Of a stretch of 64,000 nt of DNA, positions 14,932-29,110 are shown piece after piece. The stretch is from a virus (Duplodnaviria > Caudoviricetes): positions 59,210 to 123,209 of IMG/VR virus record IMGVR_UViG_3300017911_001939; one strand, written 5' to 3'. The notes beneath the pieces were generated by a model. It was given only the letters and a program-made list of their open reading frames with translations. It was not told where the DNA came from and did not search any database. The number at the start of each line of letters is the position of its first letter. Position 1 is the first letter of the stretch. Made by a program: the position numbers and the translations under genes.

Positions 14932-15267
14932 ATGGCCAATACGCTCAAAAATGTTCAACTGAACAATATTAGTACAACCGCGACCACGCTATATACCACT
15001 CCTGCAAACACCACTACGATCGTAATTGGTGCCACTGCTGCTAACATTCTTGCAAATAATAACATTAATTTCAGTATGACAATGCATGATTCGGCATCTG
15101 CCCCTGGTGTGCATGTCGTTAAGAATGCTACTATTGCACCAGGTGGTTCATTGGTTCCTATTGGTGGTGATCAAAAAGTAATTGTAGAAACCGGACATTA
15201 TTTAAAAGCCTCGAGCTCTGACTCTGATTCGGTTGATCTCATCTTATCAATCGTAGAGCAGACATAA
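14932..15267 (+). CDS. Small virion protein (paralog of 20511..20840)
   Basis: MANT(L/F)K...YT.PA...IG...AN...VVK.A.I..G.SLV.(I/V)GGDQK shared with 20511. Confidence 0.7.
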   Translation: MANTLKNVQLNNISTTATTLYTTPANTTTIVIGATAANILANNNINFSMTMHDSASAPGVHVVKNATIAPGGSLVPIGGDQKVIVETGHYLKASSSDSDSVDLILSIVEQT

Positions 15268-15268
15268 C

Positions 15269-16048
15269 ATGGCAGTTATTGGTAATAAACCTAATCCAAA
15301 CGATATATCTGTTTTTAAAACCGTAAACAAGCAAACGATTACGGGAACAGGTGATAGCTCGTATAATTTATCCTATAATGTATCGGCACCTGAAGAAATT
15401 GAGGTTTTTGTCAATAATGTAAGACAGGAGCCTAGAATTGCATATGATGTTGGATCAGGCCAAATTACGTTTGATGAAGGTATTGATAGTACAGATGGTT
15501 GTTATATTATATTTCAAGGATCTCGCGTAGGTACTATTGCACCTGCAGATAATACCATTACTACCGATATGATGAAAGATAACTCTGTTACGGCATCAAA
15601 GTTGGTAGATAGTTCAATTACAAGCTCAAAATTATCTGACACTTATGTAGATATTGTTGGATCTGTCGGTAAGGTAAAACTGCAAAGAGTATCAGCTACT
15701 CTTAGTTCTGATACAACTTTTAATGTTACTACTGATACTGCCATTGTAAGTGTTAACATTACGGTTGACTCAGGTTCGGATGTGTTTGTGACATTTAATG
15801 GCGAGCAAAATGGTCAAGTTGGTGATGCCTGGCAATGGGTACAATTATTTAGAGGTACTACTGCACTTGGTACATCAACCATATCTGTTGTGCGAAGCGG
15901 CTGGAATGAACACATTAGTTTACAATACTGGGATGAAAACTTGTCGGCAGGAACATATACTTATTCGTGTAAAGTAAGAAATGGTGCAAACTATTGTAAC
16001 TGGGGTGAACATAGCACACCAATCATTCAATGTACAGAGTTCGGATAA
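15269..16048 (+). CDS. Fibre adaptor/adhesin module
   Basis: MAVIGNKP start, VFVNNVRQEP module, SVTASKL repeats, C-terminal GTYTY domain. Confidence 0.65.
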   Translation: MAVIGNKPNPNDISVFKTVNKQTITGTGDSSYNLSYNVSAPEEIEVFVNNVRQEPRIAYDVGSGQITFDEGIDSTDGCYIIFQGSRVGTIAPADNTITTDMMKDNSVTASKLVDSSITSSKLSDTYVDIVGSVGKVKLQRVSATLSSDTTFNVTTDTAIVSVNITVDSGSDVFVTFNGEQNGQVGDAWQWVQLFRGTTALGTSTISVVRSGWNEHISLQYWDENLSAGTYTYSCKVRNGANYCNWGEHSTPIIQCTEFG

Positions 16049-16051
16049 GAT

Positions 16052-17071
16052 ATGTCATTAAGTAAGGTAAACAATAAACAAACATCAGTTCCAGCAAGTT
16101 CAACTGCTCCTTCAAGCCCATCTGTTGGTGATTTCTGGTTTGACACTGATGAAACACTAATGAAAGTTTGGAATGGATCACAATGGGATACTGTTTCAAA
16201 TAGCTTTTCTGCTACTGGTGGTACTCAAGAAGAATATAGTTCTGGAAATACTACATATAAGGTACATATCTTTAAATCTTCTGGTAACTTTATTGTTCAA
16301 TCTGGAAGTAAACAAGTTGATTATCTTATTGTAGCTGGTGGTGGCGGAGGATCTAGTGATGACTCTGGTGGTGCTGGTGCCGGCGGTCATTTAAGTGGAA
16401 CTTATACAGTAGCTCCAGGAAGTCACGCAGTTGTTATTGGCGCCGGTGGTGCAAAAACACCAAGTGGATCATCATCCAATGGTGGTAATGGAGGTAACTC
16501 TTCTGTGTTTGGTTTTACTTCTATTGGAGGAGGCGGCGGAGCCTATCAATCAGGACCTACTGGTAATAGCGGCGGCTCTGGTGGAGGTGGTGGTCACGCT
16601 CCTAGCGCTGGAGGAAGCTCACCCGGCGGCTCTGGAACATCTGGTCAAGGCAACAACGGTGGAGCCGGCCGCGGTTACGGAGATCCATGGGCCGCTGGCG
16701 GCGGCGGTGGAGCTGGAGCAGTAGGTTCAGATGGTGTTAACGGTAATAATCCAACTTCTTTTGGTGGAGTGGGGTTAACAACAAATCTTATTACAACATC
16801 ACTTGCAACAACTCATTCGGTAGGTGAAGTATCGGGTGGTAGTGTGTATGTTGCTGGAGGCGGTGGTGGTCAATACCGTGATGGATATACCGGTAGTGGA
16901 ACAAATCTAGGTGGTCTTGGTGGTGGTGGGGATGGAGGTCATGTCTCTACTGCTGGAACTAATGGAACGGCAAACACCGGTGGAGGTGGCGGTGGTGGAG
17001 GCAACCAAACCAATAACTATCTTGGTGGTAATGGTGGTTCAGGTCTAGTAATTATAAGGTATGAAGTATAA
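16052..17071 (+). CDS. Glycine-rich adhesin-like protein
   Basis: P..GDFWFDT N-terminus; YLIVAGGGGG, many GGGGG runs, ANTGGGGGG, GGSGLVIIRY end. Confidence 0.8.
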   Translation: MSLSKVNNKQTSVPASSTAPSSPSVGDFWFDTDETLMKVWNGSQWDTVSNSFSATGGTQEEYSSGNTTYKVHIFKSSGNFIVQSGSKQVDYLIVAGGGGGSSDDSGGAGAGGHLSGTYTVAPGSHAVVIGAGGAKTPSGSSSNGGNGGNSSVFGFTSIGGGGGAYQSGPTGNSGGSGGGGGHAPSAGGSSPGGSGTSGQGNNGGAGRGYGDPWAAGGGGGAGAVGSDGVNGNNPTSFGGVGLTTNLITTSLATTHSVGEVSGGSVYVAGGGGGQYRDGYTGSGTNLGGLGGGGDGGHVSTAGTNGTANTGGGGGGGGNQTNNYLGGNGGSGLVIIRYEV

Positions 17072-17409
17072 TGGCACACTACGCAAAAGTATTAAATGGC
17101 AAAGTAGTTGATATGATTGTAGCTGAAGAAAGTTTCTTTGATACATTTCAAGATACATCCCCTGGTGAATGGATTCAAACATCATATAATACATTTGGTG
17201 GAGTTCACACACAAGGTGGCACGCCGCTAAGAAAAAATTATGCTGCAGTAGGTCACACCTATGATAGAGACAAAGATGCATTTATTGCGCCTCAACCATA
17301 TCCAAGTTGGATTTTAAACGAAACAAGTTGTTTATGGGAAGCACCAGTAGATAGACCAGAAGGTGACTGGCTCTGGAATGATTCAGATCAAAGTTGGGAT
17401 AGCGCATAA
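17071..17409 (+). CDS. Conserved partner of glycine-rich protein
   Basis: MAHYAKV...WIQTSYN...LRKNYA..G..YD...DAFIAPQPYPSW. Confidence 0.7.
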   Translation: MAHYAKVLNGKVVDMIVAEESFFDTFQDTSPGEWIQTSYNTFGGVHTQGGTPLRKNYAAVGHTYDRDKDAFIAPQPYPSWILNETSCLWEAPVDRPEGDWLWNDSDQSWDSA

Positions 17410-27462: not shown

Positions 27463-27466
27463 TGAT

Positions 27467-27970
27467 ATGACAAATAGTGTATTAGGTGTAAGAAATATTC
27501 AGCATACCAACGGTACCGATGCGATGACCATTGATACCGCAGGTAATATTGATGTTAAAGGTTTTTTGACAAAACAAAAACCCATTGTTTGGGAAACATC
27601 CAGAAATAGTACGCTTTCAACTGATAATGCAGTTTGGGTTCCAAATAGAATCGAAATTGATACCGCAAGTGCAATTAATACATCCACAGGAAAATTCGTC
27701 GCACCTGTTGCCGGATATTATTATACACAGTTTACATGGTTATCTAGAAGTACTGCAGAACTGTCAGATGTTTATATTAAATGGACAGGTAGTGTTACCA
27801 ATACAATGAAAAGAATAAGAAGCCAAGGACACTCAAATCATATTTCAATGTCTGGTCATAGAATTATGTATTTAAATGTAAATGATGAACTTTGGATTGA
27901 AAATGGCACTGGTTATATTTATGGTGATAGCAATTGGTGGACATCATGGTCCGGACATTTTATAGGATAA
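27467..27970 (+). CDS. C1q-like fibre-tip module
   Basis: TGKFVAPVAGYYY...LNVNDELW...WSGHFIG. Confidence 0.7.
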   Translation: MTNSVLGVRNIQHTNGTDAMTIDTAGNIDVKGFLTKQKPIVWETSRNSTLSTDNAVWVPNRIEIDTASAINTSTGKFVAPVAGYYYTQFTWLSRSTAELSDVYIKWTGSVTNTMKRIRSQGHSNHISMSGHRIMYLNVNDELWIENGTGYIYGDSNWWTSWSGHFIG

Positions 27971-27974
27971 GAGA

Positions 27975-28529
27975 ATGACAAGCGTTTTATTAGTAGATAC
28001 AATTAAAAATTCTCTGGATTCTGCGGACACTGTTGCGTTTACTGGTGGTATTCATTCACCTGGTACACCAATCCAGGTAAAAACTGGGGTATTAAGAGGA
28101 ACTGTTGCTCATTCCACTAGTACCTTTACGGATATTGGTTTATCAGTAACAATTACCCCAAAATTATCTAATAGTCATATGATGATTTTGGCATCTATTG
28201 CTGGAGGATCTAAAACATCTTCTGCCACAACATTGCAACTTTTAAGAGATAGTACTGTAATTTTACCAGATAATCCAACTAGCCCAGGAAATAGGCAGGT
28301 AGGCATGTATGACATGTACACTGGTAATAACGGATATAATATTAATTCGTACAGTTTTATGTATGTCGATACTGGCAGAAGTGCAGGAACTTCAGCAATT
28401 ACTTACAAATTTCAATTAAAAACTCACAATACTGGCACGGTTTTTATTAATAGAAGCGGTGATGATACAGATGTAAATAATTATGTAAGAAGCACATCCC
28501 ATATTCAAGTATTGGAGATACCACAGTAA
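27975..28529 (+). CDS. 'QEIA'-type adhesin/fibre-tip module
   Basis: PGTPIQV...ITPK.SNS...GTSAITYK...FINR...LEIP. Confidence 0.65.
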   Translation: MTSVLLVDTIKNSLDSADTVAFTGGIHSPGTPIQVKTGVLRGTVAHSTSTFTDIGLSVTITPKLSNSHMMILASIAGGSKTSSATTLQLLRDSTVILPDNPTSPGNRQVGMYDMYTGNNGYNINSYSFMYVDTGRSAGTSAITYKFQLKTHNTGTVFINRSGDDTDVNNYVRSTSHIQVLEIPQ

Positions 28530-29110
28530 TGCCTATTCAAAGAGCCAAACCAATTGCTGCAGATTTGCCTATAATTCCTAGCGATAAATTATCACTAGGA
28601 GCTTCTGATATGCCATCAGGTTCTATTATTCAGACAGTAAGAACGGAATTAGCATCATCTTTACAATACACAGATGCTGATGGAGATATTATGTCTGTTA
28701 ATATCACACCTTTATTGAGCGATTCAAATTTATTAATTTCTGCGTATTTGCAATGGTCAATTATGGAAAATGAAGGTGGCGACTGGGGTATCAGATTAAG
28801 AGAAAATAGTTCAGGAAGTGAAACGACTATTTTAGGTGATGATCAAAATGGATATTTTATATCTGGTGGGGGTGTTGACACTTACGACTGGGTTGGTCAA
28901 GGCAGTAATGCATATGGTGTAAATTTTGCATCTAAAACAGATTATTATACAGGAAGAACTGCAGGCACGTCTCAATTTACTGTAAAATTAAGACACGAAT
29001 CACAACAGAATAATACTAATGTAAGATACATGCGCGATGGTTGGGGCGGTGCAGGAGTTGAATCTCAAAGAAGTAGATGCGTTCTTCTTGTCCATGAGAT
29101 TGCAGGGTAA
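28529..29110 (+). CDS. 'QEIA'-type adhesin/fibre-tip module
   Basis: GSIIQTV...ITP..SDSNLLI...HEIAG. Confidence 0.65.
   Translation: MPIQRAKPIAADLPIIPSDKLSLGASDMPSGSIIQTVRTELASSLQYTDADGDIMSVNITPLLSDSNLLISAYLQWSIMENEGGDWGIRLRENSSGSETTILGDDQNGYFISGGGVDTYDWVGQGSNAYGVNFASKTDYYTGRTAGTSQFTVKLRHESQQNNTNVRYMRDGWGGAGVESQRSRCVLLVHEIAG

What the first reader, a model, noticed from the sequence alone, without database searches (positions are those of the whole stretch)
14932..29110. 14-kb array of about 20 small interchangeable adaptor and tip modules: candidate combinatorial or branched receptor-binding system
Seen: three recurring classes. Adaptors (17409, 21430, 24354, 26220) end in AG(P/D)...G.(F/W/L)(T/S)(I/V)V. 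Ten 'G..IQ...ITP...EIA'-type or related tips (15269, 17880, 19087, 19689, 20840, 21984, 23203, 25639, 27975, 28529). Six C1q-like tips (18434, 22661, 24563, 25132, 26938, 27467). Each adaptor is followed directly by tip genes, most starting with a shared peptide S/T-x-L-x-V-x-x-(I/L). The N-terminal H-x-N-G-T-x-A-M-T-I cap is attached to C1q tips (22661, 27467, variant in 26938) and to a QEIA tip (25639), which shows domain shuffling. Inference: the N-terminal strand docks on adaptor C-termini, so many different tips can be displayed without fusion to a long fibre.
Basis: partly seen in the sequence, partly recalled or inferred. Interest (0 to 1): 0.72.

Follow-up and report, generated by a model that had tools for sequence, protein, structure and literature searches.

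The report
Plug-and-socket phage fibre tip array
An uncultured marine T4-like phage carries four tandem copies of a gene cassette, common in ocean phages but not described in the papers I could search, in which a short fibre stalk with a special end-piece is followed by three small, separately made receptor-binding knobs whose heads are swapped freely between related phages.

Summary
Window 14932-29110 is 26 tightly coupled + strand genes in three late operons. They lie in the known hypervariable host-recognition cluster, just upstream of neck genes gp13/gp14.

There are four "adaptors", and all end in one ~45-residue C-terminal module (adC). Each is followed at once by three small tips. A tip is a ~30-residue N-terminal cap plus a head. 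Both head classes, C1q-type and "QEIA", are TNF/C1q-like jelly rolls. Two cassettes add a fourth tip with a different N-terminus.

The grammar is not special to this window. It occurs in cyanopodophage P-SSP7, in the cultured pelagiphage Lederberg and in many IMG/VR contigs. adC matches 5,067 cluster representatives, and 147 of the best 150 matches reach the last or next-to-last residue. In 14 of 18 adaptor-selected loci, exactly three capped tips come first.

Against a close relative, adaptors stay 67-87% identical in the first 60 residues and the rest of the two long ones, while tips mostly keep only the cap (73-97% in seven of eleven; heads 17-27%). Metagenome contigs join across single heads.

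Non-covalent docking of cap on adC is well supported by comparison but not shown physically, and stoichiometry is unknown.

Earlier agents of this scan noted the same system on other DNA (e1-6011250, e1-5632202). I rate it a new variant of branched receptor-binding systems.

The parts
14896..14903 (+). T4-type late promoter box TATAAATA, start of operon 1 (14932-20189)
14932..15267 (+). sm110: 111-aa beta-rich protein that opens the cassette; paralogue of 20511 (44% identical)
   Evidence: The homologue in pelagiphage Lederberg is annotated 'putative virion structural protein'.
15269..16048 (+). Fused form: adaptor N-domain (adN) joined to a QEIA-like head, with no adC and no cap
16052..17071 (+). 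339-aa glycine-rich protein (PF21722). Its N-terminus MSLSKVNN resembles the 'uncapped' tip type.
17071..17409 (+). 112-aa protein of unknown role (phrog_7759)
   Evidence: One contig in run X1 joins 17091 to 17415, across it.
17409..17879 (+). Adaptor 1 (156 aa): adN beta-sandwich plus C-terminal adC socket module
17880..18437 (+). Capped tip with QEIA head. Same frame as adaptor 1, separated by one TAA.
18434..19090 (+). Capped tip; head weakly C1q-like
   Evidence: Contig joints cross the head.
19087..19689 (+). Capped tip with QEIA head
19689..20189 (+). Fourth tip of cassette 1: uncapped N-terminus (MPLTRPN..) with QEIA head
   Evidence: In run X1 one contig replaces 19709-20183 with 20 other letters.
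20185..20192 (+). Late promoter box, start of operon 2 (20223-23910)
20223..20507 (+). 94-aa shaft fragment ending ..AMAIALG, followed by sm110. Lederberg's 453-aa fibre ends ..AMAIAL and is also followed by sm110.
20511..20840 (+). sm110 copy 2
20840..21430 (+). Capped QEIA tip placed before adaptor 2
21430..21987 (+). Adaptor 2 (185 aa): adN plus adC
21984..22661 (+). Capped tip whose head belongs to neither class
22661..23206 (+). Capped tip with C1q-like head. The positional orthologue in L012 has a QEIA head.
23203..23910 (+). Tip with a long N-terminus and a QEIA head
23959..24354 (+). Tail-fibre assembly chaperone (PF16778); first gene of operon 3. Preceded by the near-consensus box TAATAAATAG.
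24354..24563 (+). Mini-adaptor 3 (69 aa): adC only, no adN
24563..25135 (+). Capped tip with C1q head (PF00386, 36.7 bits)
25132..25635 (+). Capped tip with C1q head (PF00386, 58.5 bits)
25639..26220 (+). Capped tip with QEIA head. The AF2 model is a TNF/C1q-like jelly roll. Homologous to the C-terminal domain of the LME-1 tail fibre (PDB 9efk).
26220..26945 (+). Adaptor 4 (241 aa): two adN domains plus adC
26938..27462 (+). Capped tip of position-1 type (LSKVYVNNI..; TTG start) with C1q-like head
27467..27970 (+). Capped tip of position-2 type (..IQHTNGT.AMTI) with C1q head. The orthologue in L012 carries a QEIA head.
27975..28529 (+). Capped tip of position-3 type (MTSVLLVDTIKN) with QEIA head
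28529..29110 (+). Fourth tip of cassette 4: uncapped type with QEIA head
29117..29124 (+). Late promoter box of the next unit (338-aa fibre-like protein, then gp13, gp14). Marks the 3' border of the array.

Best explanation
The array is four tandem copies, in three late operons, of a multi-gene fibre cassette that is widespread in marine phages. Each cassette encodes three kinds of part.
1. A short stalk, the "adaptor". It has 0-2 beta-sandwich domains of the type found at the virion-proximal end of podophage fibres. Its last ~45 residues form a conserved end-module, adC, that terminates the chain.
2. Three separately translated tips. Each has a ~30-residue N-terminal cap and a TNF/C1q-like jelly-roll head, a fold that forms trimers in solved relatives.
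3. Often a fourth tip with a different N-terminus, and a fibre-assembly chaperone.

Inferred mechanism. The caps plug non-covalently into the stalk end, so one stalk species displays several different receptor-binding heads. My preferred geometry is a stalk trimer whose three end-modules each hold one homotrimeric tip, as in the lactococcal BppU/BppL tripod (about 0.4 of the probability mass). Recombination at the cap/head border and at the conserved gene end exchanges heads between lineages. That keeps assembly constant while host recognition diversifies.

Shown here: the gene grammar, its wide distribution, the folds, the strictly C-terminal place of adC, and the conservation pattern.
Inferred: the physical docking, the stoichiometry, and the place where stalks sit on a T4-type virion.
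For: Context. The phage is T4-like: the major capsid protein is 66% identical to phage C48C1 and 60% to pelagimyophage HTVC008M, and gp13, gp14 and the sheath stabiliser lie directly downstream.

adC.
- It has four copies in the record, all at a protein's C-terminus.
- A profile search of 1.84 billion representatives gives 5,067 hits at E<=1e-3. Of the best 150, 147 end at the last or next-to-last residue, on proteins of 42-996 aa.
- It has no Pfam or PDB match.

The same grammar elsewhere.
- P-SSP7 gp17 (715 aa) ends in adC and is followed by three small QEIA tips, a chaperone-like gene and a fourth tip.
- Cultured pelagiphage Lederberg has, in order: fibre, sm110, adN+head, 198 aa, 96 aa, a 151-aa adaptor, four tips, and a 123-aa chaperone-like gene.
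- In tip-selected IMG/VR loci, 37 of 38 distinct adC genes are followed by a small ORF that overlaps them or starts within 8 nt. The modal run length is 4.
- In adaptor-selected loci, 14 of 18 with at least 2 kb downstream start with exactly three capped tips.

Junction elements exist only in the split form.
- Proteins of about 290 aa with adN plus head have neither adC nor cap.
- L076 7726-7959 encodes a 77-aa protein that is cap plus adC only.

Conservation, window against L012 (gp13 83% identical).
- Adaptors are 67-87% identical in the first 60 residues and in the rest of the two long ones.
- The first 30 residues of tips are 73-97% identical in 7 of 11 pairs. The remainder is 17-27% identical in all eleven, and two C1q heads are replaced by QEIA heads.

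Folds.
- The QEIA head is TNF-like: VIA Z 12.3 to Pgp3 4jdn, 11.8 to lectin PLTL 9ib6, 8.8 to C1q.
- The QEIA profile hits residues 487-657 of the LME-1 tail fibre at E 9e-13.
- adN resembles fibre N-terminal anchor or branching domains at Z 5-7.7.

Populations. Metagenome contigs from four studies join from 19-89 nt after a tip start to within 20 nt of its stop, for ten heads.

Precedent. In Klebsiella phage KP32 a 29-aa N-terminal conserved peptide was shown by experiment to dock RBP2 (PMC13352976).
Against: - There is no physical evidence.
- The adaptor model is only moderately confident (pLDDT 72.7, adC about 80) and gives no interface.
- Adjacency and co-conservation could also come from shared regulation or from recombination hot spots.
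- Capped tip 20840 stands behind sm110, not behind an adC gene, so adC may not be the only partner.
- The resemblance of adN to anchor domains is at Z values that can reflect a common beta-sandwich.
- phrog_7459 appears to join an adC-like stretch directly to a head, so adC is not a chain end in every family.
- Where these stalks would attach on a T4-type baseplate or neck is unknown.
Confidence: 0.7

Rival explanations
1. One coaxial socket, alternative occupancy. Each stalk trimer accepts only one tip trimer at a time. The three or four tip genes compete, so virions are mosaics that display a random mix (bet-hedging).
For: All capped tips share one loose motif, (S/T)-x-L-x-V-x-x-I, which fits one common site. 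A trimeric stalk continued by a trimeric tip is the usual fibre geometry (own knowledge).
Against: A free menu does not predict a fixed number. Exactly three capped tips follow adC in 14 of 18 adaptor-selected loci, and position-specific cap types recur across distant phages.
Confidence: 0.2
2. Heterotrimeric tip. The three capped proteins each give one chain to a single A-B-C tip on the stalk, as the three tandem C1q genes do in complement. The three cap types would set the register.
For: The 1:3 rule and the position-specific caps. Both head classes share the TNF/C1q fold, which is known to form heterotrimers: a solved C1q A/B/C head and an APRIL-BAFF heterotrimer are among the fold matches. 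About half of the runs carry three heads of one class.
Against: Many runs mix QEIA, C1q and GDLA-ending heads that have no detectable pairwise similarity and differ in size (125-260 aa). A packed pseudo-threefold head from such chains is hard to picture. Single heads differ between relatives and in populations.
Confidence: 0.15
3. The tips do not sit on the adaptors. They are independent small fibres, whiskers or capsid decorations. They bind through their caps to some other common virion site, and gene adjacency only reflects inheritance of a cassette.
For: Tip 20840 follows sm110 and not an adC gene. Fused adN+head proteins show that heads can be mounted without adC. The array lies where T4 has its whisker and short-fibre genes, next to gp13/gp14 (for gp13/gp14; the T4 gene order is own knowledge).
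Against: adC is a chain end in 147 of the 150 best matches. Nearly every adC gene, from 62 to 1,012 aa, is followed at once by capped ORFs in podo- and myophage contexts. A cap+adC mini-protein exists.
Confidence: 0.1
4. Recoding or DNA switching. Read-through or frameshifting fuses adaptor and first tip into one chain, or a shufflon or invertase brings one tip at a time behind the adaptor.
For: 17409 and 17880 are in one frame across a single TAA. P-SSP7 gp17 and its first tip are also in frame.
Against: The other junctions use all frames, with ATGA or TAATG overlaps typical of translational coupling. No slippery-site regularity was seen by eye at the four junctions. The array has no long direct or inverted DNA repeats. 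No recombinase family matched any array gene in the Pfam and PHROGs scans.
Confidence: 0.03

Closest known systems
Branched dual receptor-binding-protein system of Klebsiella podophages KP32/K11/KP34, and the CBA120 and G7C multi-tailspike systems (Latka et al. 2019, PMC6872550; Latka et al. 2026, PMC13352976)
   Same: A primary protein anchored on the virion carries a docking element. Secondary RBPs are separately encoded and attach through a short conserved N-terminal peptide (29 aa in KP32gp38). Specificity domains behind that peptide can be exchanged. adN's best fold match is the N-terminal assembly region of CBA120 TSP4.
   Different: Here the candidate docking element is a ~45-residue module at the extreme C-terminus, not an internal T4gp10-like branching domain. 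Three (plus one) secondary proteins follow each stalk, not one. The heads are small TNF/C1q-like knobs, not beta-helix depolymerases. Four cassettes stand in tandem. No interaction has been tested.
Prochlorococcus podophage P-SSP7 gp17 with PSSP7_037-039 and 041, and Pelagibacter podophage Lederberg EXVC029P genes 7 to 69
   Same: The same homologous parts in the same grammar. P-SSP7 has a stalk ending in adC followed by small QEIA-type tips and chaperone-like genes. Lederberg also has sm110 and a fused adN+head protein.
   Different: Those phages carry one cassette on a podovirus tail. The window has four on a T4-like myophage, with mini-stalks of 69-241 aa. In the records the small genes are 'tail fiber protein' (P-SSP7 RefSeq) or 'hypothetical protein' (Lederberg). 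In a recent P-SSP7 cryo-EM preprint the distal fibre parts were not resolved.
C1q-domain proteins beside tail fibres in pelagiphage metaviromic islands (Mizuno et al. 2014, PMC3909814)
   Same: Small C1q-domain proteins next to the fibre gene were proposed as receptor-binding proteins. Their N-terminus recruits far more metagenome reads than the C1q domain does.
   Different: That paper does not mention the socket module, the three-tip rule, the cap types or the QEIA class.
Host recognition cluster (HRC) of pelagimyophages and cyanomyophages (Zaragoza-Solas et al. 2020, PMC7029224)
   Same: A large non-syntenic, under-recruiting island in the structural region, bounded on one side by neck gene gp14. 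It mixes fibre genes with sugar-related enzymes. The window has that layout.
   Different: The HRC is described at island level. Its fibre proteins were largely unannotated there. The nearest isolate, C48C1, has giant fibre genes of about 1,660-3,350 aa at this place instead of small modules.
Lactococcal siphophage TP901-1/Tuc2009 baseplate, BppU holding BppL trimers (own knowledge; the Tuc2009 RBP head 5e7f is a fold match at Z 7.3)
   Same: Works alike in my preferred model. Small RBPs of about 160-170 aa consist of an N-terminal plug, a neck and a jelly-roll head. A trimeric adaptor holds three RBP trimers.
   Different: No sequence relation was detected. BppL is a single gene, so its three trimers are identical. 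The phage type and host differ.
Legionella podophage LME-1 tail fibre orf22 (PDB 9EFK; PMC12407071)
   Same: Its C-terminal ~170 residues are homologous to the QEIA heads (E 9e-13), which places this domain at the distal end of a virion fibre.
   Different: There the head is fused to a 658-aa fibre. The distal part was not modelled in the map.

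Membership tests
C1q / TNF-like jelly-roll domain (Pfam PF00386 C1q; TNF superfamily fold) | Sequence score above the Pfam gathering threshold (23.7 bits) | tested here: met
   24563 scores 36.7, 25132 scores 58.5 and 27467 scores 44.4 bits. 26938 scores 21.9, just under the threshold. 22661 and 18434 have no Pfam hit at E<=0.01. A profile of the six hits cerebellin, C1q and adiponectin chains at E 7e-19 to 1e-12.
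C1q / TNF-like jelly-roll domain (Pfam PF00386 C1q; TNF superfamily fold) | Ten-strand jelly-roll fold (tested on the QEIA class, which has no Pfam hit) | tested here: met
   AF2 model of 25639, pLDDT 90.6. VIA-align Z 12.3 (rmsd 2.6, 131 aligned) to Pgp3 C-domain 4jdn, 11.8 to TNF-like lectin 9ib6, 9.5 to EDA, 8.8 to C1q. Foldseek E 1.7e-5.
C1q / TNF-like jelly-roll domain (Pfam PF00386 C1q; TNF superfamily fold) | Trimeric assembly of the head | not testable with these tools
   Only single chains can be folded here.
Branched RBP systems (anchor, branching domain, conserved N-terminal peptide) | Secondary RBPs carry a short conserved N-terminal peptide in front of a variable specificity domain | tested here: met
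   The first 30 residues are 73-97% identical to L012 in 7 of 11 tips, while the remainder is 17-27% identical in all eleven. Cap types recur across distant contigs.
Branched RBP systems (anchor, branching domain, conserved N-terminal peptide) | Primary RBP holds an internal T4gp10-like branching domain | tested here: inconclusive
   adN's best matches are CBA120 TSP4 residues 181-253 (Z 7.7) and fibre N-termini of LME-1, Carin-1, P-SCSP1u and T7 (Z 5-6.9). Z values this low may reflect only a common fold. The element that co-occurs with the tips is adC, which has no known relative.
Branched RBP systems (anchor, branching domain, conserved N-terminal peptide) | Physical interaction of the peptide with the docking domain, needed for incorporation into the virion | not testable with these tools
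   Needs multimer modelling, pull-downs or phage genetics.
Host recognition cluster of pelagi- and cyanomyophages | Lies in the structural region, bounded by neck gene gp14 on one side and VrlC on the other | tested here: inconclusive
   The gp13/gp14 side is met: 30173-31523 (PF11649, phrog_211) lies 1 kb downstream. I did not look for VrlC upstream.
Host recognition cluster of pelagi- and cyanomyophages | Non-syntenic and hypervariable among relatives | tested here: met
   Among loci fetched through gp13 (66-84% identical), some carry the modules in other combinations (L012, L032, L076). Others show none within 10 kb upstream. Contigs join across single heads in four studies.
Phage tail-fibre assembly chaperone (PF16778) | Score above the Pfam threshold (26.6 bits) | tested here: met
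   23959-24354 scores 40.5 bits. It also hits phrog_4912, 'tail fiber assembly'.

The most novel reading that the evidence does not exclude
The strict "one socket, three capped genes" rule, with three position-specific cap types, may mean that each fibre end is an A-B-C heterotrimer of three different TNF/C1q-like chains. That would be the phage counterpart of complement C1q. Swapping any one gene would then create a new composite binding surface, giving true combinatorial receptor recognition in some of the most abundant viruses of the ocean.
Probability: 0.15. Interest if true: 0.85.

Novelty: new variant of a known kind. Interest (0 to 1): 0.6.

Why it matters
How the abundant phages of SAR11 and picocyanobacteria recognise their hosts is largely unknown. 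Their fibre genes are mostly annotated as hypothetical, and the distal fibre parts are not resolved in the cryo-EM studies read here (P-SSP7, LME-1).

This analysis gives a concrete parts list: stalk, adC end-module, cap, TNF-like head and chaperone. It also gives an assembly hypothesis that can be tested directly on cultured phages such as Lederberg, HTVC010P-type phages and P-SSP7.

It would explain why these islands under-recruit in metagenomes: head-sized allelic replacement between conserved junctions. It also links podophage and myophage host-recognition modules, which points to exchange between phage types.

The window is a rich instance, with four sockets and about 17 heads. It is not unique.

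Tried and rejected
Searches and tools that gave nothing.
- Megablast of the array against 50,697 phage records found no match.
I could not see the contigs of P0002 or P0043 and used the search for related loci instead.
- Liu et al. 2010 on P-SSP7 virion proteins is not held. Whether the small P-SSP7 proteins were seen in virions could not be checked.
- The search for related loci with adaptor alignment A5 failed for lack of a conserved stretch. I corrected it to a TAA-stop version.
- The adC profile has no meaningful PDB or Pfam match. The only hit is a 16-residue chance-level likeness to ribosomal protein L6.
- Foldseek found nothing at E<=1e-3 for the adaptor model.

Checks that failed or were set aside.
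- One search was circular, because profile A2 contained 18434. I redid it without that sequence.
- 21984 could not be placed in the QEIA or C1q class.
- I tested whether the fourth, uncapped tip goes with presence of the adN domain. It was seen in 8 of 22 adN adaptors and 1 of 8 without, which is too weak to claim.
- Depth profiles from Logan contigs seem to peak on adaptors and dip on heads. The tool warns that contig depth cannot rank genes, so I use only the joints. Joints with about 30-nt sides are what de Bruijn unitig bubbles give, but some could come from paralogous junction sequences.
- A shufflon or invertase reading was rejected, because the array has no long direct or inverted repeats.
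- A recoding fusion is unlikely, because the junction frames are mixed.
- TATAAATA is only modestly enriched in the window as a whole: 14 against 6.7 expected, with 2 of 100 shuffles reaching 14. Its intergenic placement is what counts.

Not attempted. A read-through fold of 17409 plus 17880.

Full report
**What is there**

The window comes from a 123-kb IMG/VR virus record, about 73% complete. It is a T4-like marine myophage. Its major capsid protein is 66% identical to phage C48C1 and 60% to Pelagibacter phage HTVC008M.

From 14932 to 29110 there are 26 + strand ORFs. Nearly all overlap by 1-4 nt or are separated by 0-4 nt. TATAAATA boxes stand at 14896, 20185 and 29117, and a near-consensus box stands before 23959. 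Together they cut the stretch into three late operons and mark its 3' border.

Directly downstream lie a 338-aa fibre-like gene, gp13, gp14 (PF11649), a gp15-like gene and the sheath stabiliser. Upstream lie more fibre genes and an enzyme cassette. This is the layout of the hypervariable "host recognition cluster" that Zaragoza-Solas et al. described in pelagimyophages and cyanomyophages (PMC7029224). The nearest isolate, C48C1, has giant fibre genes at this place instead.

**The classes**

- Four adaptors (17409, 21430, 24354, 26220) share a ~45-residue C-terminal module, adC.
- Three of them also have one or two copies of an N-terminal beta-sandwich, adN. 24354 (69 aa) is adC alone.
- Seven tips are clear "QEIA" heads. 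23203 is a supported member. The head of 15269 is a weak member. 21984 is unassigned.
- Three tips pass the Pfam C1q threshold. Two more are C1q-like by profile or BLAST. 18434 is weak.
- 15269 is a natural fusion of adN with a head.
- Other genes in the array are two ~110-aa paralogues (sm110), a tail-fibre assembly chaperone (23959, PF16778), a glycine-rich protein (16052, PF21722) and two small proteins of unknown role.

**Folds**

An AF2 model of QEIA tip 25639 (79-sequence alignment, pLDDT 90.6) is a TNF/C1q-like jelly roll from residue ~34 on.
- VIA-align gives Z 12.3 to the Chlamydia Pgp3 C-domain, 11.8 to the TNF-like lectin PLTL, and about 9 to EDA, BclA and C1q.
- It gives 8.6 to a cyanophage short-fibre binding domain.

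So the two tip "classes" are two sequence families of one fold.

The QEIA profile also matches residues 487-657 of the tail fibre of Legionella podophage LME-1 (PDB 9efk, E 9e-13). That places the domain at the distal end of a virion fibre.

The adaptor model is moderate (pLDDT 72.7).
- adN resembles the N-terminal assembly or anchor domains of CBA120 TSP4 and of the LME-1, Carin-1, P-SCSP1u and T7 fibres at Z 5-7.7. That is suggestive only.
- adC forms four short strands.
- adC has no relative in Pfam or the PDB.

**The grammar is general**

- P-SSP7, a T7-like cyanopodophage, has a 715-aa gp17 that ends in adC. Three ~195-aa QEIA tips follow, then a chaperone-like gene and a fourth tip.
- The cultured pelagiphage Lederberg has, in order: a 453-aa fibre, sm110, adN+head, 198 aa, 96 aa, a 151-aa adaptor, four tips and a 123-aa chaperone-like gene.
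- In 79 IMG/VR loci fetched with the tip profile, 37 of 38 distinct adC genes are followed by a small ORF that overlaps them or starts within 8 nt.
- To remove the selection bias I fetched loci by a DNA pattern for the adaptor end only. Of 18 adC genes with at least 2 kb downstream, 14 start with exactly three capped tips. Nine of those then have a fourth tip of the uncapped "MALTKLN" type.
- The adC profile finds 5,067 cluster representatives among 1.84 billion. In 147 of the best 150 it ends at the last or next-to-last residue, on proteins of 42-996 aa.

**Caps**

Cap types are position-specific across distant contigs, whatever head follows. In the 154-157-aa adaptor group:
- position 1 is (M/L)SKLYV(D/N)EI;
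- position 2 is MASI(L/I)GV..LQHTNGT;
- position 3 is MTSILKVD.IQN;
- position 4 is uncapped.

The window's last cassette (26220, then 26938, 27467, 27975, 28529) fits this pattern.

All four window sockets have three capped tips after them, if 23203 is counted as capped. Two add an uncapped fourth tip.

**Evidence that cap and adC are the joint**

1. Fused adN+head proteins (about 290 aa: P0006, P0050, P0055, P0059, P0065, P0066, and window 15269) lack both adC and the cap.
2. Relative L076 encodes a 77-aa protein that is only cap plus adC. That is what an extension piece would look like.
3. Against L012 (gp13 83% identical), adaptors are 67-87% identical in the first 60 residues and in the rest of the two long ones. 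Tips keep 73-97% in the first 30 residues (7 of 11). Heads drop to 17-27% in all eleven, including two C1q-to-QEIA replacements.
5. Logan contigs from four studies join from 19-89 nt after a tip's start to within 20 nt of its stop, for ten heads. This is the signature of head-sized allelic bubbles between conserved junctions. Short-sided joints can also arise from paralogous junctions.
6. KP32 gives an experimental precedent. The first 29 residues of its second RBP are a docking peptide required for incorporation (PMC13352976).

**What remains open**

- Physical docking is inferred, not shown.
- The stoichiometry behind the 1:3 rule is unknown. My estimates are: three homotrimeric tips on the three ends of a stalk trimer, about 0.4; competition for one coaxial site, about 0.2; an A-B-C heterotrimer, about 0.15; tips attached elsewhere, about 0.1.
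- Mixed head classes within runs argue against a packed heterotrimer. The fixed number argues against a free menu.
- Capped tip 20840 follows sm110 rather than an adC gene.
- The attachment site of these stalks on a T4-type particle is unknown.
- Recoding and DNA-switch readings are unlikely.

**Prior knowledge and novelty**

Already known:
- the HRC island (PMC7029224);
- C1q proteins with a conserved N-terminus next to pelagiphage fibres, proposed as RBPs (Mizuno 2014, PMC3909814);
- branched RBP systems with docking peptides (PMC6872550, PMC13352976).

I found no paper that describes the adC end-module, the three-tip rule, the cap types or the QEIA head family. My literature searches were limited to the held library.

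Earlier agents of this scan noted the same system on other DNA (e1-6011250, e1-5632202). I tested the three-tip rule independently here.

Verdict: a real and rich instance of a widespread, undescribed variant of branched receptor-binding systems. It is not unique to this window.

Noticed in passing
window 16052-17409: A 339-aa glycine-rich protein (PF21722) has an N-terminus, MSLSKVNN.., that resembles the 'uncapped' fourth-tip type. It follows the fused adN+head gene 15269 and precedes a 112-aa partner of unknown role. It may be a polyglycine-type adhesin with its helper.
   Followed up: partly
window 20223-20840; L169/L170 (Lederberg): A 94-aa shaft fragment ending ..AMAIALG is followed by sm110. 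Lederberg's 453-aa gp17-like fibre ends ..AMAIAL and is also followed by sm110. This may be a second conserved end-piece and partner pair.
   Followed up: partly
window 19689-20189: In run X1, which may be the source sample, one contig replaces 19709-20183 with 20 other letters. That is a variant almost lacking the fourth tip of cassette 1.
   Followed up: no
window 31159-32947: A contig in X1 joins across 1,787 nt covering the 402-aa gp15-like protein (31523-32731). The neck-associated protein therefore seems to vary in the population too.
   Followed up: no
L093, L112, L114, L122, L127, L145, L195, L207, L240: A third family of small capped tips (about 125-145 aa, ending ..HGDLA) follows adC stalks in many contigs, often as three in a row. 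None is present in the window.
   Followed up: partly
window 29153-30169; L012 9093-10001: The 338-aa fibre-like protein just before gp13 shows the same mosaic. Its N-terminal 60 residues are about 90% identical to the relative, and the rest is 49% identical. It is a possible whisker or collar fibre.
   Followed up: no
window 18420-28531: The conserved C-terminal peptides encode GGAG-type Shine-Dalgarno sequences for the next gene. Examples are ..QEIA written as CAGGAGAT.GC. and ..NGEWSIV written as AATGGTGAATGGAG... Part of their DNA conservation may therefore be translational. P-SSP7 (..EVAA) and LME-1 (..EIKG) keep the peptide as well.
   Followed up: partly
window 9679-14900: A six-gene enzyme and membrane-protein cassette sits between a gp37-like fibre gene and the array, which is typical of HRC islands. 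It includes phrog_1458-type proteins, a methyltransferase-like protein and a multi-pass membrane protein.
   Followed up: no
L002 (Limnohabitans phage DC33): This record is filed under Inoviridae, yet it encodes an 848-aa tailed-phage-type fibre with a fused C1q head, a QEIA tip and chaperone-like genes. The taxonomy line looks wrong.
   Followed up: no
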